Positions 3,167-24,242 of a DNA stretch of 64,000 nt are shown here, in pieces. Location: the IMG/VR virus record IMGVR_UViG_3300017971_000203; one strand, written 5' to 3'. The notes under the pieces are model-generated. The model ran no database searches. It saw only the letters and a program-made list of their open reading frames with translations, and was not told where the DNA came from. The stretch's first letter is position 1. Every line of letters starts with the position of its first letter. Both the position numbers and the translations under genes were made by a program. This DNA is from a virus.

Positions 3167-3205
3167 CGCCCCCTCCGTTGGTGGCAGCCTCTGGGAACTG
3201 TTCGT

Positions 3206-9236: not shown

Positions 9237-9825
9237 TGTCCATCTCCTTCTTGTTGGGGACACCCCCACCAACGCCCCGTGCTGCCCGGTGTACCCTAGT
9301 CTTCGGACCCGTCTTTCGGAGCGTACTTCTGAGCCAGCCGAGCCAGCTCCTCCCGTTCTTTCTGCTCCTTTGCCTCGGCCTGCTGCTTCTTGAGCTCCTC
9401 GAGCGAGGTTTTCCGAAGCGCCCTCACATCGAAGGTCCAGATCGCTCGGGCCTCGATGAGCTGCGCAACTTCGATGATGCTCTCATTCCGCGTCCAGCGG
9501 TCCCTATGTGCGCCGAGGAGAGACCATTCCGAGAAGTTGTAGTGCTCGAGCACGTAGGCCTCGGCCTCTTCCATGGTGTCCATCGGGAGCACTTCGAGGC
9601 ATTCGTTGCAGCCCCAGGGCGCGTGCTTGCACCCCTGGTCGCCCTTGATCCGGAGCAGAAACCGGTGCTCTGGCGGCTCGGGCTCAGGCGACTCGGACTC
9701 TTCTTCTTCTTTGGCCCGCATCTCTATCTGACCGATCCACTTCAGGATGCGCTTCAACCAGGTTCTGTCCTGGGTGCCCCAGTGGCCGAACTCCAGCTCT
9801 TCTTCGATCCGCTCCTCGAGCTCTT

Positions 9826-10329
9826 TCAGGTGTCGCACACCGCCTCCCTGGCCGCCCAACGGCGGTCCCGCTCTTCCTCCCACTCTTTCTCTTCGGCCTC
9901 CCACCGATCGCGCATCTCGGCAATCCGGGGGAACTTCTCCCGGAAGTACTCCTTTTCCTCCTCTTCCTCGTCCACGAACTGCACGTGTTCCATCAGGGTC
10001 GCGATGTCGTTCTCCTGCTGGAGGGTCTCCTTCACCCCCATGAACTCGGCCGGCACACCCAAGCCCGCGAGCAGACGTTCCCGGGCCAGGTCCAGGTCGA
10101 TCGGGAGCAGGTCTGCCGGTGTGACCGTCGTCGGAGGCGTCGTCAGAACGGTTTGAATGGAGAAGGCCGGATCTGGCGGACGCATGGGGGCTGTGTGGAC
10201 GTGCGTCTGGAACAGGACAGCCAGCCTCTGAACGGCGGCCTTCGTTTCCAGGATCAGCCCCTTCATCTCGCGAACAAAGTCCGGCTCGGTTCGGATGCTG
10301 CCGCGCTGCCGGATCACACTCCTACTCAT
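9826..10329 (-). CDS. Hypothetical protein with portal-like segment
   Basis: DLARERLLAGLGVPAEFMG. Confidence 0.55.
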   Translation of the reverse strand: MSRSVIRQRGSIRTEPDFVREMKGLILETKAAVQRLAVLFQTHVHTAPMRPPDPAFSIQTVLTTPPTTVTPADLLPIDLDLARERLLAGLGVPAEFMGVKETLQQENDIATLMEHVQFVDEEEEEKEYFREKFPRIAEMRDRWEAEEKEWEEERDRRWAAREAVCDT

Positions 10330-10856
10330 GGCCGAGCATCCTTGGAAGCCTGCACTGAGCTCCACACGAACTCCGCCTTGGCCCGGTTACATCCTAGCCT
10401 CTGCATGCACACAGCGACGCTTTTTTCGCGGTCGTCCCCGATCATGTCGAGGAGCTCCCTCCGGGACAGTCCGAACTCCGCCATACCTTCCTGAATGGAC
10501 GCCTCACGATCCTCCAGTTGGGCGACCACTTTCTTCATGTGCTCGTCGACGGGGTTCGAAACGCGGGGCACCTCGAGCTCCTGGACGAGCTCCGAGAGCC
10601 ACTCATCGTCAGGCAAAGTGTCCCGATAGCCGGCGACGATCTCTTCGGTGCTGTAACCCGGAGGAACGGCGCACCAGAGCGCCACTTTGGCCCGACTGAC
10701 ATCCCTATCGGTCTCGAGCCGCCAGACCTCTCCGGTCCACTCGGCGTAGCACAGGGCGTAGTTCGTGATCACCAGGGATTCGTTCATCTTCACGTAGGCC
10801 AACAGGCGAAACCCCGCCAGGGGCCGGTCCTTGAAGGTCTTCCAGTTCAGCTGCAT
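10326..10856 (-). CDS. Hypothetical protein
   Basis: 176-aa ORF; SD GGAG. Confidence 0.65.
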   Translation of the reverse strand: MQLNWKTFKDRPLAGFRLLAYVKMNESLVITNYALCYAEWTGEVWRLETDRDVSRAKVALWCAVPPGYSTEEIVAGYRDTLPDDEWLSELVQELEVPRVSNPVDEHMKKVVAQLEDREASIQEGMAEFGLSRRELLDMIGDDREKSVAVCMQRLGCNRAKAEFVWSSVQASKDARP

Positions 10857-11440
10857 TCTTCTGTCTCCTTTTCTTTCAGAGCCCTCTGAAGGGTGCCCCT
10901 CGGGATGCCTAGGAGCTTGCTCACTTTCCGTTGGGAGTAGCCCTTGCCAAAGAGCTCTTCCACGGCTTCTAGGTCGGTCTCTACCCTGGGACGCCCGACG
11001 TGTGTCCCGTTGGCCTTAGCGTGCTGCATACCGGCCTTGACCCGCTCCCTGATGGTGTCGCGTTCGAACTCGGCGAAGGCGGCCACGATGGTGAAGAACA
11101 TCTTTCCGGCGGCACTGGTCGTGTCGATGGTCTCCCGGAGGGACACGAAGTCGACGCTGTGCTCCTGGAAGGTCTCCAAGGCGGTCACGAGCTGCCGTGT
11201 GCTCCGGGCGAAGCGGTCGAACTTCCACACAAGGACTACGTCCAGCTTCCCGGTGATCGCATCCTTCATGAGCTTGTCGAGCGCCTTCCTGGAGGCCTTC
11301 GCACCGGAGACACCTTCGTCGACGTACTCCCTGTGCTTCCAGCCGTTGAGCTCCACGTACTTGCGGAGCTCCTCAAGCTGCATCTCGACGCTCTGATCCT
11401 TCGTGGACACCCTGGCGTAGATCCCGGCCCGCTTTTTCAT
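10847..11440 (-). CDS. Small serine recombinase (resolvase/invertase) with C-terminal HTH
   Basis: YARVST..Q...Q, DEGVSG, VWKFDRFARS, AEFERDTIRERVKAG, GRP, HTH. Confidence 0.95.
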   Translation of the reverse strand: MKKRAGIYARVSTKDQSVEMQLEELRKYVELNGWKHREYVDEGVSGAKASRKALDKLMKDAITGKLDVVLVWKFDRFARSTRQLVTALETFQEHSVDFVSLRETIDTTSAAGKMFFTIVAAFAEFERDTIRERVKAGMQHAKANGTHVGRPRVETDLEAVEELFGKGYSQRKVSKLLGIPRGTLQRALKEKETEECS

Positions 11441-12572
11441 GACGACCCCTCAGCTCTCTTGAGCAGCCGTGGCATCAACACCCAGCGCATCTGGGAGTCG
11501 GGGGCGACCACCTCTTCGTCGCGCCCCTTCGGGTGCTCGGCGATCATCTTGTCCAGGAAAGCCACCGCTTCACACTCCTCTTTGTGAGGAGAAAAGGCAG
11601 CGCAGAAGTCTCTGTACTCGCCCAGGGTCCCGGGACAGGGGTTGCCTTCTTCGTCTTTTCTCATCGTGTCCTCCGTTACACGTCCGACGCTTGGCGCGTC
11701 CGTTGATAGTCGGTCTCACGCTCTTCGACGTACTCGCCCCGGTGTTTCCGCCCCACGCGGTTGATCGTCCACCAGGGCGACCAGGGCTCGGAGCGCTTGT
11801 TGCGAAAGCGCACCTTGGCGTTCTTCTTCAGCTTGTCTGCCGGCAGGTACGTGGTCGTCCACCACGTCTCTTCGGTCTCGGGGTCGTCCCGGTACAGCGA
11901 ACACTGGCAGTAGTACTCATGGCGTGGCATCGGTCTCTTCCTTGCGCTCCCGGTACCAGACGAAGCCGCACTTGTCGTCGCATTCGGCCACACAGAGGGT
12001 CTCCAGGCGGTAGTGCATCGCAGGAGCGCAACCGCACTTCGGGCACAAGTCGCCACGGACACCCAGGACATCTTCGCTTCGGCCCCCGAGTTCCGGTGGT
12101 AGCCTGATGTAGTCAGGGGTGCCGATGAGCAGGGCGCAGGAGCCGTCCAGGTCTTCACGCATGGGGAGCTGTCCCGGGAACTTGTCCAACCAGAGTGTGC
12201 TCATGGCTTCCTCCCGTAGAAGAGGCGCGTGAGCACCTCCCATTCCGTTCGTTCACGGAGCTTCTTGATAGCGCGCGCGGGCGCGCCCAGGTACGTGTAT
12301 TCGAGGAGCGCCACGAGGGCCGCCTGGCTATTCTCTCTCAAGTACTGCCAGGTCTGGAGCCACGGGGGCTCGGCCTTGTTCTCTTCTTCGAGCTGCACCC
12401 GAAGGTCGAGAAGCGCCTGGATCCGGTGCGCGCTCGGCGAACCCACTTCCAGGAAGCCGTTCTCGAGCTCTTCCCGGACCTTCTCGTCGATTCGTCGCAG
12501 TGTTTCATGGCGGTGCATGGGTGTCCCCCTCCGTTGGAACTGCACACATCGTGTGTCGATGTGACACCACAC

Positions 12573-12601
12573 ACCGTAATAGGTCGCTATTCGATTGTCA
12601 A
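12573..12601 (-). promoter_or_regulatory. sigma70-type promoter
   Basis: TTGACA-17-TACGGT. Confidence 0.7.
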
Positions 12602-12900
12602 GCGGAAAAGAGGAAAAAGATCAGACGGAGTAGACGGGGGTGTCCGAGAGGACCATGGCGTCGAAGATGGCGAGCCCGATCGGGAGCTTTCTTCGGCGGC
12701 ACTTCGGACACTCGAGGCTACCTCCATCGGAGTCGACCATGTGCTCCCGGCACTTTCGGTCGGGACAGTCCGAGGGCAGCAGGGTGGACTGGTTCTCCAG
12801 GACGGTACTGTGGTTCAAGTCTGCTCGAGGCATGGCGCCCTCCTTCGGGTCCTCTCCCCAATCTTTTGTATACCCGGAAACGAACGCTTCCGGGCCACTC

Positions 12901-14106
12901 TCACCAGCTTCCATCGCGAACGGTCTCTGTGTCGACCACCTTCGGGGTGCCGCAACTGACGACCTCCTCGACCGGGGCGCTCGAATCGTCCTGTTGACCC
13001 TCTAAGCCCTTGTCCTTGTCCATCTCGGAGATGGTCTTCACCTTGCCCAGCGTCTCGGAGGCCTCCACGTCACCAAGGTCCTTGTCGTAGAGGTCGAACC
13101 AGGGGATCCCGGCCGCGAAGTACTCGTCCTTGCCGATGGGGCTCGGGGGCGGCGCTTCGCCGGTGATCTGCTGGTACATCTCCGCGTTCACCAGGTGGAC
13201 GAACACGCGCTGCTTGCAGTCCTGGTCCCAGACATGGACACCGTGGGGGTCGGGATAGACCTGCTGACGCATCGAGCCGCCCGCACCCATCCCCATCAGA
13301 GCCGCCTTCGGGGCGTTCTCCTGGAAGCTCCTCTTCGCGTGTCTCCGAATCACCGTGGGCTTGATGGCGTGCCTCATGAAGCCCTTGGCAACGCCTTCAG
13401 GGGCTCCCGCAGGCGCAGTGCTGCACAGGACCGCGCTCTCGAGGGTGTGCCCGCCGCTGGTCTTCACTTCCCCGGAGTAGCTCTCGAAGCCGTCGTCGCC
13501 GTCCCAGCCGAGGCTCTGCCCGGAGGCTCCGCCAGCAGTCGCAAAGCCGCCCTTCGCGACACCGCGGGAGCGCGTGCCTCTGCGCTTCTTGGGCTTCGGG
13601 AAGTGCTCTCGCTTGCCCGGGTAGACGGCCAGCTGCAGGCCGCCGTGCTTCTCCTCACCCGTGACCTGACCTTCCACGGTATAGCCCATGCCCAGGGGCA
13701 TCGCCACGAACTGGCTGACCTTGCCCTCTTCGGACTTGATGCCGTCGATCCACTTCTGGGGCGGAGCCACGAGGTAGTCCTGCTTGTCCTCGCTGAGACC
13801 GTCCTTCCAGGGCTCACCCGTGATGGCGTCGATCTTCCCGACGCCAACCTTCACGGCGCAGGGCGCGTGCGTGCGCAGTCCGAACTGGATCCACATCGCT
13901 TCGCGCTGGTGGAGCGGCAGGAACACGCCGCCCTTCTCCACCCAGCTGGGCGGCACCTTGTCCTTGTAGTCGTCGATGCGCTTGAGAGGGAAGCGTCCGA
14001 CCGAGCGTGGCAGGGGGTAGGTCTTTCCGTCCTCCGGGAGCCGGAAGGTTCTGTGGAAGACCACGATCAGGTTCTCTGTGTGCAGTTCATTGCCGATGAC
14101 TTTCAT
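12901..14106 (-). CDS. Conserved hypothetical protein (FxRTxRxPxDGxxYxLP family)
   Basis: FHRTFRLPEDGKTYPLP, QREAMWI, QDYLVAPPQKWIDG, QFVAMPLGMGYTVEGQVTG, GAGG, PWFDLY. Confidence 0.8.
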   Translation of the reverse strand: MKVIGNELHTENLIVVFHRTFRLPEDGKTYPLPRSVGRFPLKRIDDYKDKVPPSWVEKGGVFLPLHQREAMWIQFGLRTHAPCAVKVGVGKIDAITGEPWKDGLSEDKQDYLVAPPQKWIDGIKSEEGKVSQFVAMPLGMGYTVEGQVTGEEKHGGLQLAVYPGKREHFPKPKKRRGTRSRGVAKGGFATAGGASGQSLGWDGDDGFESYSGEVKTSGGHTLESAVLCSTAPAGAPEGVAKGFMRHAIKPTVIRRHAKRSFQENAPKAALMGMGAGGSMRQQVYPDPHGVHVWDQDCKQRVFVHLVNAEMYQQITGEAPPPSPIGKDEYFAAGIPWFDLYDKDLGDVEASETLGKVKTISEMDKDKGLEGQQDDSSAPVEEVVSCGTPKVVDTETVRDGSW

Positions 14107-14369
14107 GTCGTCTCCTCGTAGTGGCGGGGCCTCCGCCCCTGCAAACTCGAAAGCTCAAGCGGGTTACGAAGTCGTCTGTGGCCGCAAAGGAAGAGCGGTG
14201 CCCCGAGTGGAACTGGATATCGAGACCGCCGCGAAAGGTGCTGCCCATGACGATTCTGTGTGTGTCGTCCCAGTAGTGGACCCGGATGACATCTTCAGGA
14301 TCCGGGGCCTCAGTGAACTCGAGAGCCGAGAAGCCCTGAGACAGCTCTCTCCAGCGGAACGTGCCCACA
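14087..14369 (-). other. Cassette 14, terminal module in the continued linker frame
   Basis: ...HRIVMGSTFRGGLDIQFHSGHRSSFAATDDFVTRLSFRVCRGG... in ORF 14087..14998. Confidence 0.7.
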
Positions 14370-14583
14370 TCACCCCCGTGCGATCCGGAAGCCGACATCG
14401 CTGCCTGCTCCGATCTGGTGTTCGTCGAGGCGTCCATCGTGCTCGAGGAAGTCTCGGTCGTGGGTGCGCACGTAGATGACATTGTTGTAGCAGAAGCCTT
14501 TGAGGAGGGACTTGTAGGAGGCGGTCCGGGGCCTCGGTCCGTTCCCGAGGGGCCAGGGGTTCGGGATCTCAGGCCAAAAGTGG
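14370..14583 (-). other. Cassette 13, placed in 0 frame by a 1-nt insertion in its heptamer (CC[A]CTTTT)
   Basis: HFWPEIPNPW...LLKGFCYNN...SDVGFRIARG*. Confidence 0.8.
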
Positions 14584-17405
14584 CGGCGATCACCCGTAGC
14601 AGATCCGGAAGCCGACGATGTCGTGAGGACTCCCTGGGTAGAAGTTCTCGTCGTGGTAGTAGTTGGTCCGCTTGTGGAGAGTGCCGTCGCTTCTGTTCCG
14701 GTCCCACCAGGACCCGCCCCGGAGACTCCAAAAGGGCGGGGCTCACCCCCAGCAGATCCGGAAGCCCGTGAAGAAGATGCCACGTGGTCGGAGGCTCCCG
14801 TTCCGTCGTCCGAGATGGATCCGGAGAGCGTTCGTGAAGCGGGAGTAGCACTCGCCTCTTCGAACGCGGCGCCGAAAGGGCGCTTACCCTCTGCAAACCC
14901 GGAATCCGATGATGTAGAGCTTTCCTGTGATTCTCCATACCGTGCTGCATCTGCCGAGGGGTTGGAAGTCCTCTGAGAACCACGAGTTCCCTCGGCACCT
15001 GCTAAAGGGCCCCTACCCCCAGCAGATCCGGAAACCTTTGCCCCAGGAGTTGTCGGCGAAAGGTTCGGAGTCACGCTTCGCGACGCTGGCGACACCTCTG
15101 AAGAGGCTGCTGGCGAAGCCTCGCCCGGTCTTGGCGACAGGGAAGACGAAGTGTCGAAAGGGCGCTCAAGTACCTCCGTCGGATCGGACGATCCGGAATC
15201 CGAGCAGCTTGTCGGACATGGTTGTGAGCCCGGTTCCCCGGGCGTTGAGACGGAGGGAGACCGCGGAGCCGCCCCCTCGACAGATCGGGATCCAGACAAA
15301 GGGCGGCGCTCACCCCCAGCAGATCCGGAAGCCGGCGCTGGTCCAGTCCCCGAACTCACGCCCCTGTCTTCGGCGGGATGCGGAAGGCTGGAGTCGCATC
15401 CAGGACCCCGCTCGGACGACCCGAAAGGGACAGCGTCCTCCTCATCCTCGGCAGATCCGGAATCCGCGCCGCTGGTGGGCCCAGCTTCGTCGTGGGGAGA
15501 AGCACTTCCCAGACAGTCGCACGCGCGCGTAGACGGCGTCGAAACACCCTCCCCGGGGCTTGCCATACGGCTCCCGCCAGGGCTCCCCGGAAAAGGGTGA
15601 TCACCCCCAACAGATCCGGAAGCCGATATGATGGGCCCGGGTCCACATGGTGCGGGGGGTCTTTCTCCCGGGTCGCAAATTGTGGGGAGGGTACGGGTGT
15701 GCTGCATCGAGCCATGCGCCCCCTCGGAGGAAGCGGTCCCGAGGAAAGGGTCAGGAGTGTCCTCCTCGACAGATCCGGAAGCCCCAGCGGCCGGCTGCTC
15801 CTCTTCCGTATCCTCTGATGGAGAGCCGTCCGAGAGCGGGGGTAAAGAACTCGATGAGGTAGATCCCCCGCTCCCCGAGTCGAAAGGGCGATCAACCTCG
15901 GGCGATTCGAAAACCCTTACCAAATGAGGAGGAGGCGAAGGGCTCGGATGACCGCTTCGCGAGGCTGGCGACGCCCCTGTAGTAGACGCTGGCGAAGCCC
16001 CGCCCGACCTTGGCGAAGGGGCTCGGTCCTCGAGCGACCCGGTCGGCCTCTGTGGTCTCTCCCCAGGGACGAAAGGGCGGCGATTACCCCTGGGATCGGA
16101 CGATCCGGAAGCCGAGGAGCGTCCCCTTGTACTCGGGGTAGCTCCCAGGGCCTCGGTGGGCGATCCGGGCTCCGTGACCAGAGGAGAGTTCCCTGAACAA
16201 GCGTCCGCCTCGGAAGTTGGCACTTCGAAAGGGCGCCGTCTACCCCCGGCAGATCCTGAACCCTGGTCGAACGGTGTAGAAGACGTAGGTCTCGAGCTCG
16301 ATGTACCAGGACTTGAAGCCCTCGGGGTGTTGGTTCCCGAGCCACTCGCGGCGGGACAATCGGAGGGGTGGGTCGGGGTAGAAAGCGCCGCGGAGAGTGA
16401 GGGATCGCCGTGCCCAAAAGGGAGCTCAACCTCGGCAGAGCCGACGCCCTCGGGGTCCGGCTCGGGCGTCTGGGACGAGGCTGAGTCTGGAGAGGGGCAG
16501 GGGCCAGTCGAGAGAGGAAGTCGTTCGATCTCGAAATTGACCTCCGCGGGCTCTCCGCGCTGGTGCCGTTTCTTCGACGTCACCTGCCTCATGGGAGGGT
16601 CCGGCTTCTGCTCCGCCATAGTGATGTCGGGCTTCGCGTGCTTCATGTGTTCGGCGTATTCGTCCCAGCACCACTCCCAGACGTTCCCCAGGCAGTCGTA
16701 GAGGCCCCACCTGTTCGGAGCCAGCTGCCGAACCGCATGAGTCCGACCATCTGAGTTCTGGTCAAACCAGGCGATCTCTTCCAGAGACGCCTCGCGCCAC
16801 TCGACTTCGCCACCACACCGGTCGCACACCCCAATCTCGTACCGCGCACCGTCGCTGCCCGCCCTGGCGGCGTACTCCCACTCCACCTCGGACGGGATCC
16901 GGAAGCCCGGGCCCTCCTTCCACAGGTAGCCCTGCTGGCGGTCCCCGATGTACGCGGGCGGTAAACCGCAGCGCTCCGAGAGCGCGTTGCAATACTCGAT
17001 GGCGTCGTACCAGCTCACGCACTCCACCGGGCGCTCGAGAGGATTGTCGCCCTGCTGGAAGTGGCTGGGGTTCTTCCCCATCACCGCTGCGTACTCGGAC
17101 TGCGTGACCGGCGCAGAAGCCATCCAGTACGTGTTCTCGATCGTCACCTCGATCTGATGCTCGTTCCGCCACCGACCATCTTCGTCCGGCGGACTGCCCA
17201 ACACGTCCGTACCGGCAGGGATCTCCACCAGCTCCGGGATCACAACGCCCTCCAGACGTGCGAGGTCAAGGCGCGCGAGCACGTCCCCTCCCCGGCTGCG
17301 AAGCCGCAGGAACTCCCGGAGAGCCGCCTCGTCATTGTCCACCGCCAGCTTCCCCAAGCGCTCGAGCTGCCGCACGTTGGTCGTTGATTCTCTCGTTGTC
17401 TCCAC
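14370..17405 (-). CDS. FGE-sulfatase (SUMF1/C-type lectin fold) protein, 0-frame product with long Ser/Gly/Pro linker; parent of frameshift isoform array
   Basis: Motifs IPAG..LGSP, PVTQSEY, PVECVSWYDAIEYCN, RIPSEVEWEYAARAG, PNRWGLYDCLGNVWEWCWD; ends VGFRIARG*. GTG start at 17405 follows SD GGAGGGG. Confidence 0.93.
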   Translation of the reverse strand: METTRESTTNVRQLERLGKLAVDNDEAALREFLRLRSRGGDVLARLDLARLEGVVIPELVEIPAGTDVLGSPPDEDGRWRNEHQIEVTIENTYWMASAPVTQSEYAAVMGKNPSHFQQGDNPLERPVECVSWYDAIEYCNALSERCGLPPAYIGDRQQGYLWKEGPGFRIPSEVEWEYAARAGSDGARYEIGVCDRCGGEVEWREASLEEIAWFDQNSDGRTHAVRQLAPNRWGLYDCLGNVWEWCWDEYAEHMKHAKPDITMAEQKPDPPMRQVTSKKRHQRGEPAEVNFEIERLPLSTGPCPSPDSASSQTPEPDPEGVGSAEVELPFGHGDPSLSAALSTPTHPSDCPAASGSGTNTPRASSPGTSSSRPTSSTPFDQGSGSAGGRRRPFEVPTSEADACSGNSPLVTEPGSPTEALGATPSTRGRSSASGSSDPRGNRRPFVPGERPQRPTGSLEDRAPSPRSGGASPASTTGASPASRSGHPSPSPPPHLVRVFESPEVDRPFDSGSGGSTSSSSLPPLSDGSPSEDTEEEQPAAGASGSVEEDTPDPFLGTASSEGAHGSMQHTRTLPTICDPGERPPAPCGPGPIISASGSVGGDHPFPGSPGGSRMASPGEGVSTPSTRACDCLGSASPHDEAGPTSGADSGSAEDEEDAVPFGSSERGPGCDSSLPHPAEDRGVSSGTGPAPASGSAGGERRPLSGSRSVEGAAPRSPSVSTPGEPGSQPCPTSCSDSGSSDPTEVLERPFDTSSSLSPRPGEASPAASSEVSPASRSVTPNLSPTTPGAKVSGSAGGRGPLAGAEGTRGSQRTSNPSADAARYGESQESSTSSDSGFAEGKRPFGAAFEEASATPASRTLSGSISDDGTGASDHVASSSRASGSAGGEPRPFGVSGAGPGGTGTEATALSTSGPTTTTTRTSTQGVLTTSSASGSATGDRRHFWPEIPNPWPLGNGPRPRTASYKSLLKGFCYNNVIYVRTHDRDFLEHDGRLDEHQIGAGSDVGFRIARG
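14590..14736 (-). other. Cassette 12 (-1 frame, CCCTTTT)
   Basis: PFWSLRGGSWWDRNRSDGTLHKRTNYYHDENFYPGSPHDIVGFRICYG*; canonical RGGSW...GFR. Confidence 0.92.
14743..14880 (-). other. Cassette 11 (-1 frame, CCCTTTC)
   Basis: PFRRRVRRGECYSRFTNALRIHLGRRNGSLRPRGIFFTGFRICWG*. Confidence 0.87.
14884..15009 (-). other. Cassette 10 (-1 frame, CCCTTTA)
   Basis: PFSRCRGNSWFSEDFQPLGRCSTVWRITGKLYIIGFRVCRG*. Confidence 0.87.
15013..15162 (-). other. Cassette 9 (-1 frame, CCCTTTC), paralog of cassette 3
   Basis: PFRHFVFPVAKTGRGFASSLFRGVASVAKRDSEPFADNSWGKGFRICWG*. Confidence 0.87.
15166..15303 (-). other. Cassette 8 (-1 frame, CCCTTTG)
   Basis: PFVWIPICRGGGSAVSLRLNARGTGLTTMSDKLLGFRIVRSDGGT*. Confidence 0.85.
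15310..15429 (-). other. Cassette 7 (-1 frame, CCCTTTC)
   Basis: PFRVVRAGSWMRLQPSASRRRQGREFGDWTSAGFRICWG*. Confidence 0.9.
15442..15597 (-). other. Cassette 6 (-1 frame, CCCTTTT)
   Basis: PFSGEPWREPYGKPRGGCFDAVYARVRLSGKCFSPRRSWAHQRRGFRICRG*. Confidence 0.87.
15601..15750 (-). other. Cassette 5 (-1 frame, CCCTTTC)
   Basis: PFPRDRFLRGGAWLDAAHPYPPHNLRPGRKTPRTMWTRAHHIGFRICWG*. Confidence 0.9.
15751..15888 (-). other. Cassette 4 (-1 frame, CCCTTTC)
   Basis: PFRLGERGIYLIEFFTPALGRLSIRGYGRGAAGRWGFRICRGGHS*. Confidence 0.85.
15892..16077 (-). other. Cassette 3 (-1 frame, CCCTTTC)
   Basis: PFRPWGETTEADRVARGPSPFAKVGRGFASVYYRGVASLAKRSSEPFASSSFGKGFRIARG*. Confidence 0.87.
16084..16233 (-). other. Cassette 2 (-1 frame, CCCTTTC)
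   Basis: PFRSANFRGGRLFRELSSGHGARIAHRGPGSYPEYKGTLLGFRIVRSQG*. Confidence 0.87.
16240..16422 (-). other. Cassette 1 (-1 frame, CCCTTTT)
   Basis: PFWARRSLTLRGAFYPDPPLRLSRREWLGNQHPEGFKSWYIELETYVFYTVRPGFRICRG*. Confidence 0.85.
16426..16599 (-). other. Cassette 0 (-1 frame, degenerate entry CCCTCCC)
   Basis: PSHEAGDVEETAPARRARGGQFRDRTTSSLDWPLPLSRLSLVPDARAGPRGRRLCRG*. Confidence 0.55.
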
Positions 17406-17422
17406 CGTCCCCTCCGTTGGTC

Positions 17423-17722
17423 TCAGTTCTGAAGCCGCTGTCGCTGGCCCTTGAACCACAAGCCCGAGTCCTGCTCCTTTTGGTTGTCGTAGCTCTCCAC
17501 GTCCCAGTCGGCGTGGTAGAACGTGACCCGCACGAGGTTCTGCTCCTGGTGATCCAGGTTGAGCGGAAGGTCGCGCCACGAGATGCGGCACCCATACGGG
17601 TCCTTCGCCAGACGCTCATTGATAGCCACGATCACCGGACCCAGGTCCCGCTCCTTGTTCTTCTTCCACTGCTCACGCGCACTCACTGGCGTGATTGGCT
17701 CGACTTTCTGGTTGCTGCCCAT
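17423..17722 (-). CDS. Hypothetical protein
   Basis: 99-aa ORF directly upstream of the FGE gene. Confidence 0.6.
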   Translation of the reverse strand: MGSNQKVEPITPVSAREQWKKNKERDLGPVIVAINERLAKDPYGCRISWRDLPLNLDHQEQNLVRVTFYHADWDVESYDNQKEQDSGLWFKGQRQRLQN

Positions 17723-17737
17723 CGGTCTACGTCTCCT

Positions 17738-17962
17738 TCACCAATCCCCGTCATGTACTTCGAGGTCCTGCTTCGAAGCCTCGATCGCCCTCACAATCAC
17801 CTCCTCTCGGATCTCCAGGAGCTCTGATGCCAGCGCGTGCAAGACCAGCTCCGTGATCGCCTTGCTCCTGCTGATCCCGCCCCGATGCCGGCAGTACGAA
17901 TCCACCCGCTCCAGCATCGCCGTCAGGGTGTACAAGCACACCCGAGCTGTGTCACGCCCCAC
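17738..17962 (-). CDS. Ribbon-helix-helix protein
   Basis: LERVDSYCRHRGGISRSKAITELV. Confidence 0.6.
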   Translation of the reverse strand: MGRDTARVCLYTLTAMLERVDSYCRHRGGISRSKAITELVLHALASELLEIREEVIVRAIEASKQDLEVHDGDW

Positions 17963-18015
17963 GTCATACCTCCCGTCACCCTGATGTCACACCAGAGTAG
18001 GACAACAGTCACATA

Positions 18016-18043
18016 ACTATATCGGTCGTTCCCCGGTTGTCAA
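18016..18043 (-). promoter_or_regulatory. sigma70-type promoter upstream of the RHH/FGE-array operon
   Basis: TTGACA-16-TATAGT. Confidence 0.65.
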
Positions 18044-18046
18044 GGC

Positions 18047-18253
18047 CTATGTGTCGGGGAGCTCGTCTTCTCGGTAGAAACGCCACGTAGGCATCCCGTC
18101 CGGGTCGAGCGCATTCATTACAAGATAGGCCAACGCCGTCGCACGGCTGACCTTCTGAACCCCATGCACCACGCAGAGATACTTCGCCAGAAGATCCAGG
18201 CGATCAAGGACCTCCGGCAGCAAGCGAAAAGAGGTCGGCTTCGTATTGCTCAT
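18047..18253 (-). CDS. Ribbon-helix-helix-like protein
   Basis: TSFRLLPEVLDRLD...VSRATAL. Confidence 0.55.
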   Translation of the reverse strand: MSNTKPTSFRLLPEVLDRLDLLAKYLCVVHGVQKVSRATALAYLVMNALDPDGMPTWRFYREDELPDT

Positions 18254-18369
18254 CAGCAAGACTCCTGTTAGGGTGAGTGAGCTACATCGGTGTAGTACAT
18301 ACAAAAACGTACCCGATCCGAAGCGGGAAGGGAAGGGGTATCACCGAAAGAAGGGGAGCTTGTAGGAAG

Positions 18370-20268
18370 ATGGCGACACAACGGCGGAAACTGTTCCCGG
18401 CCCTGATTGTCGATCTGACCCCCATCGAACTGGCTGCGAAGGGCCTGGTTTCGACGCATACGTTCGGCCAGCAGTTCGAGTTGCAACCAACCACTCTCAC
18501 CGCATCCGCGGGCGCGAACTATTTCCCCGCGGTTCGGACCACAGCCAAGTGCAGGGACAAGCGCTACGCCTACCCCAGGGATATGCGTTGCTACCTGGCC
18601 AGCCACAAGTTCCACACGAAAGAGGGGGAGGAACCTGTGGAACTGCCCCAGGCGCTCTTCAATGACCCCTACGACCCCCCGGGAGGGTTCAAGACCCGCC
18701 TGGACTGGAACCCGAGCTCCTGGCGCGTAGGCGACCCGTTCCCGAAATTCGACTCGGGACCTGACCTGGAAGGCTGCGAAGAACTCGAGGGGGACGAGCT
18801 CCTGAAGAAGGCGGTGGAACTTCTGGACTTCGGCTACTTCCTGAAGGCCACCGGCAAGCTCCTTGGACGGTCTCCCACAGTGCTGCGCGAACTCCTGATA
18901 GACGCCGGCGAATGGCCCCGGAAAGACCTCGGAGGCCAGAAGACTCGTAAACGGGGCGTCGTCGAAGAACCAGAGCCGGAAGAGCCGGAGCCCGAAGCAG
19001 CTGCCGAAGAGCCGCAACCGGAGCCAGAGCCGGAGCCGGAAGAGCCAGAAGCCGAGGTCGTGGATGAAGACGAAGACCTCGGAGAAGACTTCAGAGACCT
19101 AGGAGAGCCCGAGTTCAGCCCCGAAGGCATCCTGACCCTCTATTTCGAGAATCACCCCTTCCAGCTGACCGATAGCAATACACACCCCTTCGTCATCAAA
19201 GATGCTTGTGATTACCTGGAGATCCAGAACGCCCGCCAGGCTGCCGATCGGCTAGACAAGGATGATGTATGTTCAACATATATCATCGACTCGCTGGGCA
19301 GACCTCAGAAAACGCTCACCTGCAACTTCCCCGGCTACCTGGATCTCGTGATGGGGGCTCGGTCTTCGGACCGTGCACGCCCCTTCCAGCGGTGGGTAAC
19401 ACACACCGTTCTGCCCACTCTTGCCAAACTGGGGACGTACACTCTGGGACAAGAACAGGCCGCTCATGGCTCGCCGCTGCCGGGGGACCTCGAGCGCCTC
19501 TTCATGCAGCAGGCAGAGATCAACGTCCAACAATCCCGGATCAACGCCCAGCACGCCGAGACCATCTCCACCCTGGAAGAGCTGGTCGGGAAAATGATGG
19601 GGGGCATCGACGACTTCGTGAAGAGTGCTTCGAAGCGCTTCGAAGAGGTCGAAGAACGAACGGACCAAGCTGAAGAGCGTATTTCCAACCTGGAAGAAAC
19701 CCTGAAGAACGCCCTGGAAGACCCGTTCCTCGGAAACGACGCTGCGAACCAGGACAGGCACATCTTGAACGCGATCGCCAAGGCCAGGGGCATGGCCATC
19801 TTCTTCGGCACCAGCGACGGTGCCCGGATCGAAAGACAACTCCGAATTTGTCCCGAGGGCTCTCCCGAACACGACAAGCTGAAGTCCGAGAAGTGGAAAA
19901 AAGCCAGACCCCACATCAAAGGTGTATACACGGCCTTCTACCGCTACCTGCTCCGCCATTCCCGGAACCCTGTCATCGACGTGTGCGCCCGCAAACGCAG
20001 AGATGTGGAGCTCGTCAAGAAAGCCAACGGCGCCAAGGCCGCCAAACGGTTCGAAGGGATCGCTCGTCTGATCGACTACATCAGAGTCGAAGAGATGCCG
20101 GAAGCGTTGACCCTCCTGGTTCGCTCCTGTCTGGAAGAAGGGTTCTATCCCGTGCTGTTCCACGAACAACCCCGCATCCGGGAACTGATACGGGATATCC
20201 GGTACAAGAAAGAAAACAAACCGCGTGGTTCCAACGGAACGCCGCCGGAACCGCCCCCGAGCCCCTGA
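18370..20268 (+). CDS. Bro-N domain (antirepressor-like) protein with PE-rich linker and coiled coil
   Basis: PFVIKDACDYLEIQNARQA...GYLDLVMGARSSDRARPFQRWVTHTVLPTLAKLGTY. Confidence 0.82.
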   Translation: MATQRRKLFPALIVDLTPIELAAKGLVSTHTFGQQFELQPTTLTASAGANYFPAVRTTAKCRDKRYAYPRDMRCYLASHKFHTKEGEEPVELPQALFNDPYDPPGGFKTRLDWNPSSWRVGDPFPKFDSGPDLEGCEELEGDELLKKAVELLDFGYFLKATGKLLGRSPTVLRELLIDAGEWPRKDLGGQKTRKRGVVEEPEPEEPEPEAAAEEPQPEPEPEPEEPEAEVVDEDEDLGEDFRDLGEPEFSPEGILTLYFENHPFQLTDSNTHPFVIKDACDYLEIQNARQAADRLDKDDVCSTYIIDSLGRPQKTLTCNFPGYLDLVMGARSSDRARPFQRWVTHTVLPTLAKLGTYTLGQEQAAHGSPLPGDLERLFMQQAEINVQQSRINAQHAETISTLEELVGKMMGGIDDFVKSASKRFEEVEERTDQAEERISNLEETLKNALEDPFLGNDAANQDRHILNAIAKARGMAIFFGTSDGARIERQLRICPEGSPEHDKLKSEKWKKARPHIKGVYTAFYRYLLRHSRNPVIDVCARKRRDVELVKKANGAKAAKRFEGIARLIDYIRVEEMPEALTLLVRSCLEEGFYPVLFHEQPRIRELIRDIRYKKENKPRGSNGTPPEPPPSP

Positions 20269-20961
20269 TCAACGGTCCTCCTTCCACAGGGTCTTGCCTG
20301 CCCCGGAACAGTACGAGTCCCAGGACAGGGCCGGTGCCTCGATCGGCTTCGGAAGGGGCGCCGTGAGCTCGGTCTTCTCCTTGTCGACCCCGTACTCTTC
20401 CAGGCAGCGTTTCTCGACTTCCTTCACGAAGTCCACCACCCAGTAGATCGACTTGCCGGTCAGATCCACGAGGAATTCGAACAGTATCCGGCATCGGGCC
20501 ACAGGGTTGGGATCGAGCTCCAGGCCCCACTCCGCCCCCAATCTGAGCCCCTTCTGCGTGATCGCCACGAAGCGCTCGTCGCAGACGAACACATCGGCGC
20601 CCCAGCAGATCTCGATCCCGAGACGGATGGACTCCATGGAAGCAAACACGAAGTGGGAGAGATCTCCCAGCTCGGTCGCCTGATAGGGGTCCAAGGTCTC
20701 TTCGCCATCTGCCTCCTGGAACACCCGCTCCAGGAAAGAGCCCTCGCAAGGCACAGAGAGATCCCCGCCCGTCCCCTCCCCCGGGAAGAACTCGCACGAA
20801 CGCATCGTGGAGGCCCACACGTTCGCCGTCTCGCCCTCCCCCATGGGCACCTGTATCAAAGGGACCTCGTTCGGGAGGTGCCCGAAAGAGATCCAGCGGA
20901 CGGGGAGCTCGAACTTGTTGCGCGCCCAGACCTTCTTCCGTCGTCGCTTTATCCGGCCCAT
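20269..20961 (-). CDS. Hypothetical protein
   Basis: MGRIKRRRKK... Confidence 0.6.
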   Translation of the reverse strand: MGRIKRRRKKVWARNKFELPVRWISFGHLPNEVPLIQVPMGEGETANVWASTMRSCEFFPGEGTGGDLSVPCEGSFLERVFQEADGEETLDPYQATELGDLSHFVFASMESIRLGIEICWGADVFVCDERFVAITQKGLRLGAEWGLELDPNPVARCRILFEFLVDLTGKSIYWVVDFVKEVEKRCLEEYGVDKEKTELTAPLPKPIEAPALSWDSYCSGAGKTLWKEDR

Positions 20962-21251
20962 CAGTCGTCGTACTCCCCGCGCATCAGGGACTTGACCCGC
21001 GAATTCTGGGCGGCGCCTACGACCCCGTGCAAAGCACCCCAGCACAGGAAGTGGACGAACAGCGACGCAAGGAGCCCGATCACCGGGAACTCGTATTCGA
21101 CGTTGGCGTCGCTCACCAGGTCGACCAGGACCGCACCGGCCAGCCACACGAAGAAGAACACAACGACCGCGCCCGAGAGGTAGTAGAGCCCCTTCACCAG
21201 CAGCGCGATCGGCAGCACGGCCAGCCAGAACCACTGTCGTAGCTTCTTCAT
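20961..21251 (-). CDS. Membrane protein
   Basis: 2-3 hydrophobic segments. Confidence 0.65.
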   Translation of the reverse strand: MKKLRQWFWLAVLPIALLVKGLYYLSGAVVVFFFVWLAGAVLVDLVSDANVEYEFPVIGLLASLFVHFLCWGALHGVVGAAQNSRVKSLMRGEYDD

Positions 21252-22456
21252 GGCGCCTCCCACACTCCGAGCTCTTCCAGACGGGCTCGGCTGCAGACTT
21301 CTCCCCTGCGAGCCAGGTCCAACACCATCACACCAGGCTCGACTAGCATGCACCACCCCGGGGAAGGTTCGTAGTCGAACCAGAACTCCCGAATGCTCTC
21401 CGGCGACGCCCCGCAGAGAAGCGTCTGGAGCTCCCTGGCCGTGCAAGAAATCACATAGGCCTGATCGCCATTGATGCGATCAAGGTTCGACGACAAATAC
21501 AGGAAGCGATGCTTCAGACCGGGCGCGTCTTGTGTCCCGTCGTATGGAGGGGGTGGATCGGACGATCCGGACCCGTCGTCCCCGCGTTCGTGTGCTTGTT
21601 CCACCACTCGAGCAGCTTGTCCTGGTTCGCCAACAGCTCCCGGCGCTGCTCCTTGGTCAGGCTGGCCAGCAGCTGCCCCTCCTCGCTCTCTAGGAGCCGC
21701 ATCAGAGACTTCCTCGAGCCCTTCTTCGGTCGAACCATCGTGTCTATCACTGCGTCCAGGTCCCTCTGAGACGGCGGCTTGTACCTTCCCGTCATCCCCA
21801 TCAGCAGAGACTGGTACCACGTCTTTCCTGAAAAGAGCTCCGAAGCCTTGTTCGAGCCGCGCGTCGTACTCTTCTTTCCCGAGAACTCGTTGCATCGTCG
21901 CTTCGTACTCATCGCGTTCACGAACCCCCTGGTCGATCTCGTAAATCCGGGTTTCCTGGTTCCCGATCAAGTGCCGCAAGTGGCCCGCAAGACCATCGCT
22001 TCCGGCCTCTTCCGCAAATCGACGTGTTTCCTGGAGTTGCGACAAGACCTTCTGCTCGAGAACCTTCTGTTTTAGAAGGTTCTCCTTCAAGGCGTCTTTG
22101 CCGTAGTCTACGATACCCTTCAAGAAAGCCGTCAGGGTCACTACCTGCCCTGTGTGGGGCTTTCTGATAGACGTCGACACCGTGAGCCCGTCTACAGGGG
22201 TCCTCAAGAACCCCACGACGTCTGTTCCATCGGGGCGCAGCGACTGAGGGGCTCGCGGAAGGAGCTCCCGGTTGACCCTCTTCACGAGGTCGTTGATGAA
22301 ACGGAGCTTCTTTCGGGCTCGGTCCTGGCAGCCCATCGCATATCGACAGGCGTCGTTGAGTGTCTCTTGCAGTTCGGTGTCGGCGTCTTCGAGCTCGTAC
22401 CGAATCTCACCGGCCAGCTCGCGCAGCTCCCGGTCGTGCTTCCGTCCTGCGTTCAT
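21248..22456 (-). CDS. Coiled-coil hypothetical protein
   Basis: N-terminus paralogous to C-terminus of upstream gene. Confidence 0.6.
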   Translation of the reverse strand: MNAGRKHDRELRELAGEIRYELEDADTELQETLNDACRYAMGCQDRARKKLRFINDLVKRVNRELLPRAPQSLRPDGTDVVGFLRTPVDGLTVSTSIRKPHTGQVVTLTAFLKGIVDYGKDALKENLLKQKVLEQKVLSQLQETRRFAEEAGSDGLAGHLRHLIGNQETRIYEIDQGVRERDEYEATMQRVLGKEEYDARLEQGFGALFRKDVVPVSADGDDGKVQAAVSEGPGRSDRHDGSTEEGLEEVSDAAPRERGGAAAGQPDQGAAPGAVGEPGQAARVVEQAHERGDDGSGSSDPPPPYDGTQDAPGLKHRFLYLSSNLDRINGDQAYVISCTARELQTLLCGASPESIREFWFDYEPSPGWCMLVEPGVMVLDLARRGEVCSRARLEELGVWEAP

Positions 22457-23790: not shown

Positions 23791-24242
23791 GAACTCACAG
23801 CAATAAGCCCTTCCAGTCCAGGACCGCGCGCTGGCGGACCAGCATCAACGTCCCCGGGGTCTTCGTCTCCCGAACGTCCAGGCGGAAGTTGTTCCAACGC
23901 TGCGCCCTCTGAATGGGGGTCAGCCGCTGGCGCCACTCCTCGTACAGGTCCCGGATCTCCGCCCGGGTGGCCGACACCTGGACCTTCTGTCCGTGCTCCA
24001 TCACAGCCGCCATCAAGCCGATCTTTTTCTCTTCCGTCATCGTCTGTCCACTCCGTTGGTTCGTTGTCTGCCACGCCCTCTCGCGGACCCTCTTGAGCAG
24101 GGCGGGGTCCGCCGGATTCTCCCCAGCATCGAGTGCCTTCTCCAGCTCCTCCATGTACACAGCGCCGTCTGCGCCCTCTTCGAGGTGCGTCAGAACCGTT
24201 CCCAGGAATCCTTCTGCTGTTTGCAGAAACTCGGTTGAAAAC

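What the first reader, a model, noticed from the sequence alone, without database searches (positions are those of the whole stretch)
14730..16436. Every slippery site has an upstream internal Shine-Dalgarno-like element
Seen: 5-9 nt 5' of each heptamer lies GAGGT (sites 1,4), GGGGGT (2,6,8,10,12), AGGGGT (3), GGAGGA (5,7), GGAGGT (9) or AGAGGGT (11). It is usually built into the previous cassette's ...RG/WG-stop. Where the tail or spacer differs (5,7,9) a perfect GGAGG is present. No start codon follows. Known: an upstream internal SD stimulates bacterial -1 frameshifting (dnaX, IS911). Inference: each cassette's tail is the stimulator for the next, making the unit self-contained and duplicable. 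Variation in SD strength, spacing and the last heptamer base could tune isoform ratios. Alternative: landing signals for gene-60-like ribosome bypassing onto CCC codons.
Basis: partly seen in the sequence, partly recalled or inferred. Interest (0 to 1): 0.8.

Follow-up and report, generated by a model that had tools for sequence, protein, structure and literature searches.

The report
Shine-Dalgarno-like motifs before serial frameshift sites
In a phage-like genome, one lectin-fold gene carries twelve ribosome-slipping sites in a row, and each is preceded at 5-9 bases by a G-rich ribosome-binding-like motif; the motif is real and non-random and may boost slipping, but this is unproven and half the sites sit closer than the distances known to work.

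Summary
Observation confirmed. On the minus strand, all 12 C_CCT_TTN heptamers (16422 to 14730) lie in one register with a 1011-codon open frame. Each has GAGGT, GGGGGT, AGGGGT, GGAGGA, GGAGGT or AGAGGGT 5-9 nt upstream, and no start codon follows. Anti-SD pairing averages -11.7 kcal/mol against about -6 for background. Eleven of 12 sites reach -8 or better, against 0 of 15 CCCTTT sites elsewhere in the window. Strength is uneven: sites 1, 2, 10 and 11 are no better than shuffles of their own flanks.

The motif lies in each cassette's (R/W)-Gly-stop ending, which is unusual for FGE domains (Gly there in 9%). It persists where the stop codon has moved (sites 5, 7, 9) and before site 1, where no cassette ends. 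The genome's own genes use GGAGGGG leaders. No 3' hairpin stands out.

Interpretation partly supported. Six sites have dnaX-like spacing (8-9 nt). Six sit at 5-6 nt, outside the published stimulatory range. Two junctions without a working heptamer keep the motif. The tails share ancestry, and no relative's DNA or RNA data could be obtained.

The scan noted similar arrays in two other genomes. I found no paper that describes one.

The parts
14370..17405 (-). FGE-sulfatase/C-type-lectin-fold gene, frame 0 (1011 codons from GTG 17405 to stop 14372-14370)
   Evidence: ORF. The start was set from the leader motif and start-codon scan. Pfam FGE-sulfatase covers profile positions 3-204 of 255 only.
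17409..17420 (-). CCAACGGAGGGG leader (true initiation SD) 3 nt before the GTG start
   Evidence: There are 8 copies in the window, each 3-9 nt before a start codon that opens 81-1011 codons. This shows the host system uses SD pairing.
16623..17237 (-). N-terminal four-fifths of the FGE/C-lectin domain, ends at WEWCWDEY
   Evidence: residues 119-323 of the 1073-aa ORF.
16416..16433 (-). Module 1: GAGGT, 6 nt, C_CCT_TTT. The motif sits in a decayed pseudo-tail (RLCRG-stop) with no cassette before it
   Evidence: dG -8.0.
16227..16247 (-). Module 2: GGGGGT (in CGG GGG TAG), 8 nt, C_CCT_TTC
   Evidence: dG -10.5.
16071..16091 (-). Module 3: AGGGGT (in CAG GGG TAA), 8 nt, C_CCT_TTC
   Evidence: dG -9.7.
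15882..15899 (-). Module 4: GAGGT (in CGA GGT TGA), 6 nt, C_CCT_TTC
   Evidence: dG -12.9, with extended pairing through TGATCG.
15744..15767 (-). Module 5: GAGGAGGA, 9 nt, C_CCT_TTC. The stop codon abuts the heptamer (tail RGGHS-stop)
   Evidence: dG -11.8.
15591..15608 (-). Module 6: GGGGGT (TGG GGG TGA TCA), 5 nt, C_CCT_TTT. Ten contiguous pairs with the 16S 3' tail
   Evidence: (dG -19.2).
15423..15443 (-). Module 7: GAGGAGGA lying in the 12-nt spacer after the stop, 6 nt, C_CCT_TTC
   Evidence: dG -12.3.
15297..15317 (-). Module 8: GGGGGT (TGG GGG TGA), 8 nt, C_CCT_TTG
   Evidence: dG -14.5.
15156..15177 (-). Module 9: GGAGGT (GGA GGT ACT TGA), 9 nt, C_CCT_TTC
   Evidence: dG -10.9.
15003..15020 (-). 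Module 10: GGGGGT (TGG GGG TAG), 5 nt, C_CCT_TTA
   Evidence: dG -9.8.
14874..14892 (-). Module 11: AGAGGGT (AGA GGG TAA), 5 nt, C_CCT_TTC. This is the weakest motif
   Evidence: dG -6.3, at background level.
14730..14750 (-). Module 12: GGGGGT (TGG GGG TGA), 8 nt, C_CCT_TTT
   Evidence: dG -14.3.
14593..16422 (-). Twelve -1-frame cassettes of 39-61 aa, each starting PF at a heptamer and ending GFR[IV][CVA][RWY]G or a short extension, then a stop. Coding parts: 16422-16243, 16233-16087, 16077-15895, 15888-15754, 15750-15604, 15597-15445, 15429-15313, 15303-15169, 15162-15016, 15009-14887, 14880-14746, 14736-14593
   Evidence: All 12 score against an FGE C-terminal HMM in this frame, and above every alternative frame. 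Cassette 5 hits Pfam profile positions 214-253.
14373..14582 (-). Cassette 13, in frame 0, ending the ORF with GFRIARG-stop
14576..14597 (-). Junction 12->13: tail TAC GGG TGA TCG CCG, then CCACTTTT (heptamer broken, cassette 13 hard-wired in frame). Anti-SD complementarity is retained
   Evidence: dG -13.3.
14356..14378 (-). Junction 13->14: CGG GGG TGA TGTGGG, then CACGTTC (decayed heptamer). The motif is retained
   Evidence: dG -16.0.
14087..14355 (-). Orphan 14th cassette (…STFRGG…LSFRVCRGG…) beyond the ORF stop
   Evidence: (weak HMM score in one frame only).

Best explanation
The motifs are true anti-Shine-Dalgarno-complementary elements. They belong to a repeated junction module: ...GFRI-x-(R/W)-Gly-stop, 0-12 nt, C_CCU_UUN.

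The module sits inside a serial -1 programmed-frameshift array. Ribosomes read a Ser/Gly/Pro-rich linker in frame 0. At each heptamer a fraction slips to -1, reads a 39-61-aa cassette that supplies the missing C-terminal strands of the FGE/C-type-lectin fold, and terminates. The rest go on to the next module, and the last cassette is in frame.

Most likely the 3' tail of 16S rRNA in the elongating frame-0 ribosome pairs with the G-rich element while CCU and UUY occupy the P and A sites. The GGAGG-equivalent core ends 7-11 nt before the P-site codon. That matches the genome's own SD-to-start spacing of 5-11 nt and the spacing at dnaX. The pairing would hold or strain the ribosome on the slippery codons and raise -1 slippage in the absence of any 3' structure. 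Each cassette's end would then also serve as the stimulator for the next site.

Shown here: presence of the motif, its enrichment and spacing, its placement in codons, SD use by this genome, absence of start codons, absence of 3' hairpins, and the coding capacity of the frames.

Inferred: that frameshifting happens at all, and that the motif changes its efficiency.
For: 1. All 12 heptamers are in register and all 12 carry the motif at 5-9 nt.
2. Pairing energy is far above background, and above composition-matched shuffles. It is absent at the 15 other CCCTTT sites in the window.
3. The genome's genes are led by GGAGGGG 3-9 nt before start codons, this gene included.
4. 3' flanks of 45 or 75 nt fold no better than shuffles (z from -2.05 to +1.34). 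No other stimulator is evident.
5. Gly follows GFRxxR in only 28 of 309 ordinary FGE C-termini, but in 10 of 13 cassettes here. Given the tail residues, the codons chosen are in the top 6-25% for anti-SD pairing at most sites.
6. The distance from motif to heptamer stays within 5-9 nt, while the stop-to-heptamer gap ranges 0-12 nt. In the duplicated blocks 2-3 and 8-9 the stop moved through a 3-nt indel, yet AGGGGT/GGAGGT and CCCTTTC stayed.
7. Before site 1 the GFRI-coding part of a pseudo-tail has decayed, but CCGAGGTTGA remains 3 nt from the heptamer, although nothing is translated in that frame there.
8. Literature: internal SD elements stimulate bacterial -1 shifting (PMC5009743, PMC6321510, PMC4066793). 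All-pyrimidine heptamers with UUY are among the more shift-prone classes in E. coli (PMC4066793), and 10 of 12 sites end in Y.
9. Support for the array itself.
Against: - There is no experimental or expression evidence of any kind.
- Six sites (1, 4, 6, 7, 10, 11) have the motif only 5-6 nt from the heptamer. That is below the published stimulatory windows of 9-14 nt (PMC5009743) and 8-11 nt (PMC6321510), and a closely juxtaposed SD attenuates -1 shifting.
- If pairing extends through GGUGA(UC), the helix ends even closer to the heptamer.
- Sites 1, 2, 10 and 11 are no stronger than shuffles of their own flanks.
- Junctions 12->13 and 13->14, which lack a usable heptamer, keep strong motifs, as expected if the motif is simply inherited with the tail.
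- The tails are paralogous and partly near-identical, so the statistics overstate independence.
- Eight other SD-like 8-mers lie inside cassettes.
- In frame 0 the motif reads Gly-Gly, which fits the Gly-rich linker anyway.
- The host and its 16S tail are unknown.
- No relative's DNA was available to test conservation.
Confidence: 0.45

Rival explanations
1. By-product of ancestry and coding. The founder cassette happened to end in Arg-Gly-stop (CGR GGN TRR). Every duplicate inherited this ending together with the heptamer, so a G-rich run necessarily lies a few bases before each next site. The array still works by frameshifting, but slippage relies on the heptamer alone and the motif has little or no effect.
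For: - The conserved repeat unit is the whole junction: tail, stop, spacer and heptamer.
- Given the residues (R/W)-G-stop, synonymous alternatives already average -7 to -10 kcal/mol.
- Motifs persist at the two dead junctions.
- Four sites are no better than shuffles.
- Half the spacings lie outside the known stimulatory range (PMC5009743, PMC6321510).
Against: - The Gly-stop ending is rare in the family (9%).
- New GGAGG copies appear at 6-9 nt exactly where the tail or spacer was remodelled (sites 5, 7, 9).
- The motif is retained in the non-coding pseudo-tail before site 1.
- Codon choice is biased towards pairing (Fisher about 0.01 computed from the values).
- A heptamer without any stimulator usually shifts poorly in bacteria. 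This last point rests on my own knowledge and the general statement in PMC5009743.
Confidence: 0.3
2. The array is not decoded by ribosomal frameshifting at all. The cassettes would be silent donors for recombination or gene conversion into the in-frame cassette 13, or a decaying tandem duplication. The G-rich runs would then have no translational role.
For: - There are no RNA or protein data.
- A resolvase-family gene lies about 3 kb away.
- The junction module could serve as a short homology block.
- Cassette 13 is in frame and cassette 14 is decayed.
Against: - All 12 cassettes are in the same -1 frame.
- Each starts at an in-register X_XXY_YYZ heptamer, and each ends with its own stop.
- Frame 0 is kept open for 685 codons (0.15% by chance) and reads as a disordered Ser/Gly/Pro linker.
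- There is no inverted copy of the junction and no TR/VR-type repeat.
- All repeats are direct, so recombination between them would only delete cassettes.
- Two assemblies carry an identical array.
Confidence: 0.12
3. The motif acts on translation but not as a stimulator. At the short spacings it could damp -1 slippage, so that enough ribosomes reach distal cassettes. Alternatively it could act on ribosomes terminating at the overlapping -1-frame stop.
For: - A closely juxtaposed internal SD attenuates -1 shifting (PMC6321510, PMC5009743).
- Six sites have 5-6 nt spacing.
- The motif overlaps the stop codon at most junctions.
- A 12-site series needs low per-site efficiency for distal cassettes to be made at all (my inference).
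Against: - The attenuating geometry described is about 3 nt, not 5-6 nt.
- The other six sites have stimulatory spacing.
- No restart codon follows the stop.
Confidence: 0.08
4. Landing-site signals for gene-60-like translational bypassing onto CCC/CCU codons.
For: In T4 gene 60 a minimal SD lies 6 nt 5' of the landing site and has a modest effect (PMC5009743). The spacing here is similar.
Against: - No stop codon follows any heptamer in frame 0.
- No take-off hairpin stands out.
- Gaps would be 126-189 nt or more, against 50 nt in gene 60.
- The in-register tandem-slippery heptamers are exactly what a one-base shift needs.
Confidence: 0.02

Closest known systems
E. coli dnaX tau/gamma -1 frameshift cassette (A_AAA_AAG, SD-like AGGGAG upstream, 3' stem-loop)
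   Same: An in-frame tandem-slippery heptamer with an anti-SD-complementary element upstream. Six of the 12 sites have comparable spacing (8-9 nt, against 8-14 nt in PMC5009743 and PMC6321510).
   Different: There is no detectable 3' stem-loop. The heptamer is C_CCU_UUN. Six sites have shorter spacing (5-6 nt). The motif is built into the stop-codon end of the preceding alternative C-terminus. There are twelve sites in series rather than one.
IS911 / IS3-family OrfAB -1 frameshift
   Same: An upstream SD-like element and a slippery heptamer produce a trans-frame fusion. Sharma et al. (PMC4066793) describe the SD as acting through pausing or tension.
   Different: IS911 also uses a 3' three-way junction, and its SD doubles as an initiation signal for OrfB. 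Here no start codon follows and no 3' structure is seen.
prfB (RF2) +1 frameshift with SD 3 nt upstream
   Same: A GGGGG-type internal SD next to a UGA codon. The G-run also encodes Gly, and GG_AGG variants exist (PMC5009743).
   Different: The direction of the shift and the spacing differ. Here the UGA is in the frame that is being left behind, not in the A site of the shifting ribosome.
T4 gene 60 bypass landing-site SD
   Same: An SD about 6 nt 5' of the codon where decoding resumes (PMC5009743).
   Different: There is no take-off stop, hairpin or matched distant codon pair. The shift needed here is one base.
Diversity-generating retroelements acting on FGE/C-type-lectin-fold variable proteins (e.g. 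TvpA, Mtd)
   Same: The same fold, and the same C-terminal ligand-binding segment is the part that varies.
   Different: There is no template/variable repeat pair within 9000-23000. Diversity here is a fixed set of 13 hard-coded endings chosen at translation. I did not search for a reverse transcriptase.

Membership tests
SD-stimulated bacterial -1 programmed frameshift site (dnaX / IS3 type) | X_XXY_YYZ heptamer in register with the upstream reading frame | tested here: met
   All 12 C_CCT_TTN heptamers share the register of the 1011-codon frame.
SD-stimulated bacterial -1 programmed frameshift site (dnaX / IS3 type) | The -1 frame after the site encodes a meaningful product | tested here: met
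   Each -1 peptide ends in GFRI..G-stop and scores as an FGE C-terminus in that frame only.
SD-stimulated bacterial -1 programmed frameshift site (dnaX / IS3 type) | Upstream element complementary to the 16S 3' tail, stronger than background | tested here: met
   Mean -11.7 versus about -6 kcal/mol, and 11 of 12 sites <= -8. Sites 1, 2, 10 and 11 are individually weak.
SD-stimulated bacterial -1 programmed frameshift site (dnaX / IS3 type) | SD placed 8-14 nt 5' of the shift site | tested here: inconclusive
   Sites 2, 3, 5, 8, 9 and 12 are at 8-9 nt. Sites 1, 4, 6, 7, 10 and 11 are at 5-6 nt (against PMC5009743 and PMC6321510).
SD-stimulated bacterial -1 programmed frameshift site (dnaX / IS3 type) | 3' stem-loop or pseudoknot 5-9 nt after the heptamer | tested here: not met
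   MFE z-scores of the 45- and 75-nt 3' flanks run from -2.05 to +1.34, centred near 0. Pseudoknots were not modelled.
SD-stimulated bacterial -1 programmed frameshift site (dnaX / IS3 type) | The translation system uses SD:anti-SD pairing | tested here: met
   Eight CCAACGGAGGGG leaders lie 3-9 nt before start codons, including this gene's. The host 16S is not available.
SD-stimulated bacterial -1 programmed frameshift site (dnaX / IS3 type) | Trans-frame product demonstrated, and dependent on the SD | not testable with these tools
   No RNA holder was listed and only contigs were available.
Gene-60-type translational bypass | Take-off codon followed by a stop, take-off hairpin, matched landing codon | tested here: not met
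   Frame 0 has no stop in 685 codons, and no 3' hairpin stands out.
Invertase/shufflon-type DNA switching of alternative C-termini | Inverted crossover repeats flanking the segments | tested here: not met
   Junction repeats occur on one strand only.
Diversity-generating retroelement target | Template repeat nearly identical to the variable region, with adenine-specific differences, and a reverse transcriptase nearby | tested here: inconclusive
   No TR/VR-like repeat lies in 9000-23000. A reverse transcriptase was not searched for.

The most novel reading that the evidence does not exclude
Each cassette's last codons form a dual-purpose recoding unit. They end one protein isoform with a stop. 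Through pairing with 16S rRNA, they also program the -1 shift into the next isoform. This makes a self-contained module that can be duplicated to build serial frameshift arrays. Natural variation in SD strength (-6 to -19 kcal/mol), spacing (5-9 nt) and the seventh heptamer base would set the stoichiometry of 13 alternative ligand-binding endings from one mRNA.
Probability: 0.3. Interest if true: 0.8.

Novelty: new variant of a known kind. Interest (0 to 1): 0.62.

Why it matters
Internal Shine-Dalgarno stimulation of -1 frameshifting is known from a handful of single sites such as dnaX and IS3-family elements. Here one mRNA would carry twelve such sites, with natural variation in motif strength, spacing and heptamer.

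This amounts to a ready-made allelic series for testing the spacing and tension rules of SD-assisted slippage. It also points to how a serial frameshift array could grow by duplicating a self-contained unit.

If the array works as read, it is a translation-level counterpart to diversity-generating retroelements on the same lectin fold. One gene would yield 13 fixed binding-site variants. I found no description of such arrays in the papers searched. The scan has noted two similar arrays in other genomes.

Tried and rejected
Relatives' DNA:
- Protein-guided scans of viral contigs found nothing.
- The scan of metagenome contigs returned 80 loci, all ordinary complete FGE domains.
- DNA-pattern scans of genome contigs and viral contigs gave only chance-level single hits and no arrays.
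- The cassette alignment was too diverged to use as a search query.
- Three protein searches and the exhaustive representative search found only one true homologue, P0004.
- The second cluster member, P0267, is the same sequence.

Reads:
- No RNA holder is listed.
- The two DNA holders carry one identical 35.8-kb contig with no variants or joints. There is therefore no information on expression or rearrangement.

Structure:
- In the alignment built to fold the full frame-0 product, the homologues' C-termini scattered over the linker, so I ran no structure prediction.

Other:
- Tandem Repeats Finder reports nothing, because the cassette bodies are too diverged.
- Pfam alone recognises only cassette 5. 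A purpose-built HMM was needed.
- Larsen et al. 1994 is not held, so spacing rules are taken from PMC5009743 and PMC6321510.
- Neighbouring genes gave no informative PHROG or Pfam names.

Considered and rejected:
- The motifs as ribosome-binding sites for separate cassette translation: no start codon follows.
- Transcriptional slippage: there is no long homopolymer.
- A hairpin between the G-run and CCC: it would lie inside the ribosome when the heptamer is being decoded.

Full report
**What is there**

The flagged region is the 3' two-thirds of a minus-strand gene. Eight copies of the 12-mer CCAACGGAGGGG on this strand are each followed 3-9 nt later by a start codon that opens 81-1011 codons. 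One copy lies at 17420-17409, which places the gene's start at GTG 17405.

Frame 0 runs 1011 codons to the stop at 14370. Pfam finds an FGE-sulfatase (C-type-lectin-fold) domain, but only profile positions 3-204 of 255. The last strands of the fold are therefore missing in frame 0.

After WEWCWDEY the frame reads a linker of Ser 19%, Gly 14%, Pro 13%, Ala 9.5% and Thr 8%.

**The array**

Twelve CCCTTTN heptamers lie on the minus strand between 16422 and 14730. All are in register X_XXY_YYZ with frame 0.

Reading from each heptamer in the -1 frame gives a peptide of 39-61 residues. Each begins Pro-Phe and often contains RGG(S/A)(W/F). Each ends GFR[IV][CVA][RWY]G, or a 2-4-residue extension of that, followed by a stop codon 0-12 nt before the next heptamer.

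A 13th cassette is in frame 0 and ends the ORF with GFRIARG. A decayed 14th lies beyond the stop.

I built an HMM from 250 C-terminal segments of ordinary FGE domains. It scores all 13 cassettes in the proposed frame above every alternative-frame translation. Pfam itself places cassette 5 at profile positions 214-253.

The cassette bodies are only about 26% identical to each other. Only the two ends are conserved.

If the -1-frame peptides are kept and their codons re-drawn, frame 0 acquires 6.3 stops on average. It stays open in only 0.15% of trials.

The conserved repeat is the junction itself, made of tail, stop, spacer and heptamer. It occurs on one strand only, and no template/variable-type repeat is present.

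These features fit serial -1 ribosomal frameshifting better than DNA switching or decay. No expression evidence exists: no RNA holder is listed, and the two DNA holders carry one identical contig.

**The observation itself**

| Site | Motif | nt to heptamer |
|---|---|---|
| 1 | GAGGT | 6 |
| 2 | GGGGGT | 8 |
| 3 | AGGGGT | 8 |
| 4 | GAGGT | 6 |
| 5 | GGAGGA | 9 |
| 6 | GGGGGT | 5 |
| 7 | GGAGGA | 6 |
| 8 | GGGGGT | 8 |
| 9 | GGAGGT | 9 |
| 10 | GGGGGT | 5 |
| 11 | AGAGGGT | 5 |
| 12 | GGGGGT | 8 |

- No start-like codon in the cassette frame follows within 3-13 nt.
- The best hybridisation energy with the canonical 16S tail in the 24 nt before each heptamer averages -11.7 kcal/mol. The same statistic over the array or window averages about -6 (sd about 3).
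- Eleven of 12 sites are <= -8, against 22% of background positions.
- Of 19 SD-like 8-mers in the array, 10 fall in the 8.5% of positions just upstream of a heptamer.
- None of the 15 CCCTTT hexamers elsewhere in the window has such a motif.
- Shuffling each site's own 24-nt flank gives -7.2 on average (Fisher about 1e-7).

The strength is uneven. Site 6 can form ten contiguous pairs (-19.2). Sites 1, 2, 10 and 11 are no better than their shuffles, and site 11 is at background level.

The sites are paralogous, so these p-values are upper bounds on significance. With about six distinct tail types the signal is still nominally significant.

**Coding by-product or signal?**

The motif is built from the codons (R/W/Q)-Gly-stop. 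Given those residues, synonymous alternatives already average -7 to -10 kcal/mol. The observed codons are in the top 6-25% at most sites. Part of the pairing therefore comes from the residues.

That ending is not a family trait, though. In 309 ordinary FGE C-termini, GFRxxR is followed by Thr (33%) or Ser (29%) and by Gly in only 9%.

Three natural experiments favour a nucleotide-level role:

1. Where the tail or spacer was remodelled (sites 5, 7, 9), a perfect GGAGG lies 6-9 nt from the heptamer. The stop lies 0, 12 and 3 nt away at those three sites.
2. Blocks 2-3 and 8-9 are a segmental duplication in which the stop codon moved through a 3-nt indel. AGGGGT/GGAGGT and CCCTTTC were kept.
3. 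Before site 1 the GFRI-coding part of a pseudo-tail has decayed, but CCGAGGTTGA remains, although that frame is not translated there.

One observation argues the other way. Junction 12->13 (CCACTTTT) and junction 13->14 (CACGTTC) no longer have a usable heptamer, yet both keep strong complementarity (-13.3 and -16.0).

**Fit to known mechanism**

Internal SD elements stimulate bacterial -1 shifting when placed 9-14 nt (PMC5009743) or 8-11 nt (PMC6321510) before the shift site. At about 3 nt they stimulate +1 shifting and attenuate -1 shifting.

Six sites (2, 3, 5, 8, 9, 12) sit at 8-9 nt and resemble dnaX. Six (1, 4, 6, 7, 10, 11) sit at 5-6 nt, between the two regimes. If pairing extends through GGUGA(UC), the helix ends closer still.

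Measured from the GGAGG-equivalent core, the P-site codon CCU lies 7-11 nt downstream. The genome's own leaders place start codons 5-11 nt from that core. Pairing could therefore coexist with CCU and UUY in the P and A sites.

The 3' flanks fold no better than shuffles, so the 5' motif is the only conserved candidate stimulator.

PMC4066793 reports that UUN codons and all-pyrimidine heptamers are among the more shift-prone in E. coli. Ten of the 12 heptamers end in C or T. Sites 8 (G) and 10 (A) should be weaker.

Motif strength shows no trend along the array, so I see no evidence for graded tuning.

**Relatives**

Only one true homologue was found. P0004 is 60-62% identical in the N-domain. 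Its frame 0 also continues into a long low-complexity tail with periodic Pro-Phe and an in-frame last cassette.

All other scans returned ordinary FGE genes or chance hits.

Notes of this scan report similar serial arrays in two other genomes. I could not examine them.

I found no paper that describes such arrays.

**Verdict**

The reading that each cassette's tail stimulates the next frameshift is plausible and partly supported by sequence logic, but it is unproven. I put it at 0.45.

| Reading | Probability |
|---|---|
| Each tail's motif stimulates the next -1 shift | 0.45 |
| Inherited by-product with little or no effect | 0.30 |
| Array is not decoded by frameshifting at all | 0.12 |
| Acts on translation but not as a stimulator | 0.08 |
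| Landing signal for bypassing | 0.02 |

SD-assisted -1 shifting is a known kind of signal. Its embedding in the stop-codon end of the preceding alternative C-terminus, repeated twelve times in one mRNA, is a new variant.

Noticed in passing
window 3170-3181, 12526-12537, 17409-17420, 24048-24059, 43201-43212, 44903-44914, 51907-51918, 52278-52289 (minus strand): The 12-mer CCAACGGAGGGG (at most 1 mismatch) occurs 8 times, against 0.64 expected. Each copy is followed 3-9 nt later by a start codon opening 81-1011 codons. It looks like a shared leader/RBS module. One copy moves the FGE gene's start to GTG 17405.
   Followed up: partly
window 15875-16110 and 14996-15195 (minus strand): Cassette blocks 2-3 and 8-9 are a segmental duplication. 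The bodies of cassettes 3 and 9 are about 72-79% identical in DNA. Their junctions have diverged much more, yet they kept the SD-like run and CCCTTT.
   Followed up: partly
window 14356-14378 and 14087-14355 (minus strand): After the ORF stop there is a decayed heptamer (CACGTTC) and an orphan 14th FGE-like cassette (…STFRGG…LSFRVCRGG…) in another frame.
   Followed up: partly
heptamer contexts, window 14730-16422 (minus strand): Nine of 12 heptamers are followed by G, and seven have CGC as the codon before them. Many cassettes therefore start Pro-Phe-Arg and the linker reads Arg-Pro-Phe. This may be extra context for slippage.
   Followed up: no
L081 9020-9090 (about window 11440 and below, minus strand): A resolvase-family (PF00239) gene was called about 3 kb downstream of the array in the public contig. 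No inverted repeats link it to the array.
   Followed up: partly
window 7920-9482 (minus strand): A 521-aa ORF combines a tRNA-binding domain and an RNA ligase domain (Pfam), which suggests tRNA repair. Most other large ORFs in the window have no Pfam or PHROG match.
   Followed up: no
window 18966-19070 (plus strand): A short Glu/Pro-rich imperfect tandem repeat lies inside the 663-aa Bro-N-domain protein next to the FGE gene.
   Followed up: no
protein P0004 (Logan run SRR29850983, 5.8-kb contig): This is the only homologue of the N-domain. It has the same truncated FGE core, a low-complexity tail with about seven Pro-Phe or Pro-Leu sites, and an in-frame final cassette. A second array of this type therefore exists, but its DNA could not be read.
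   Followed up: partly
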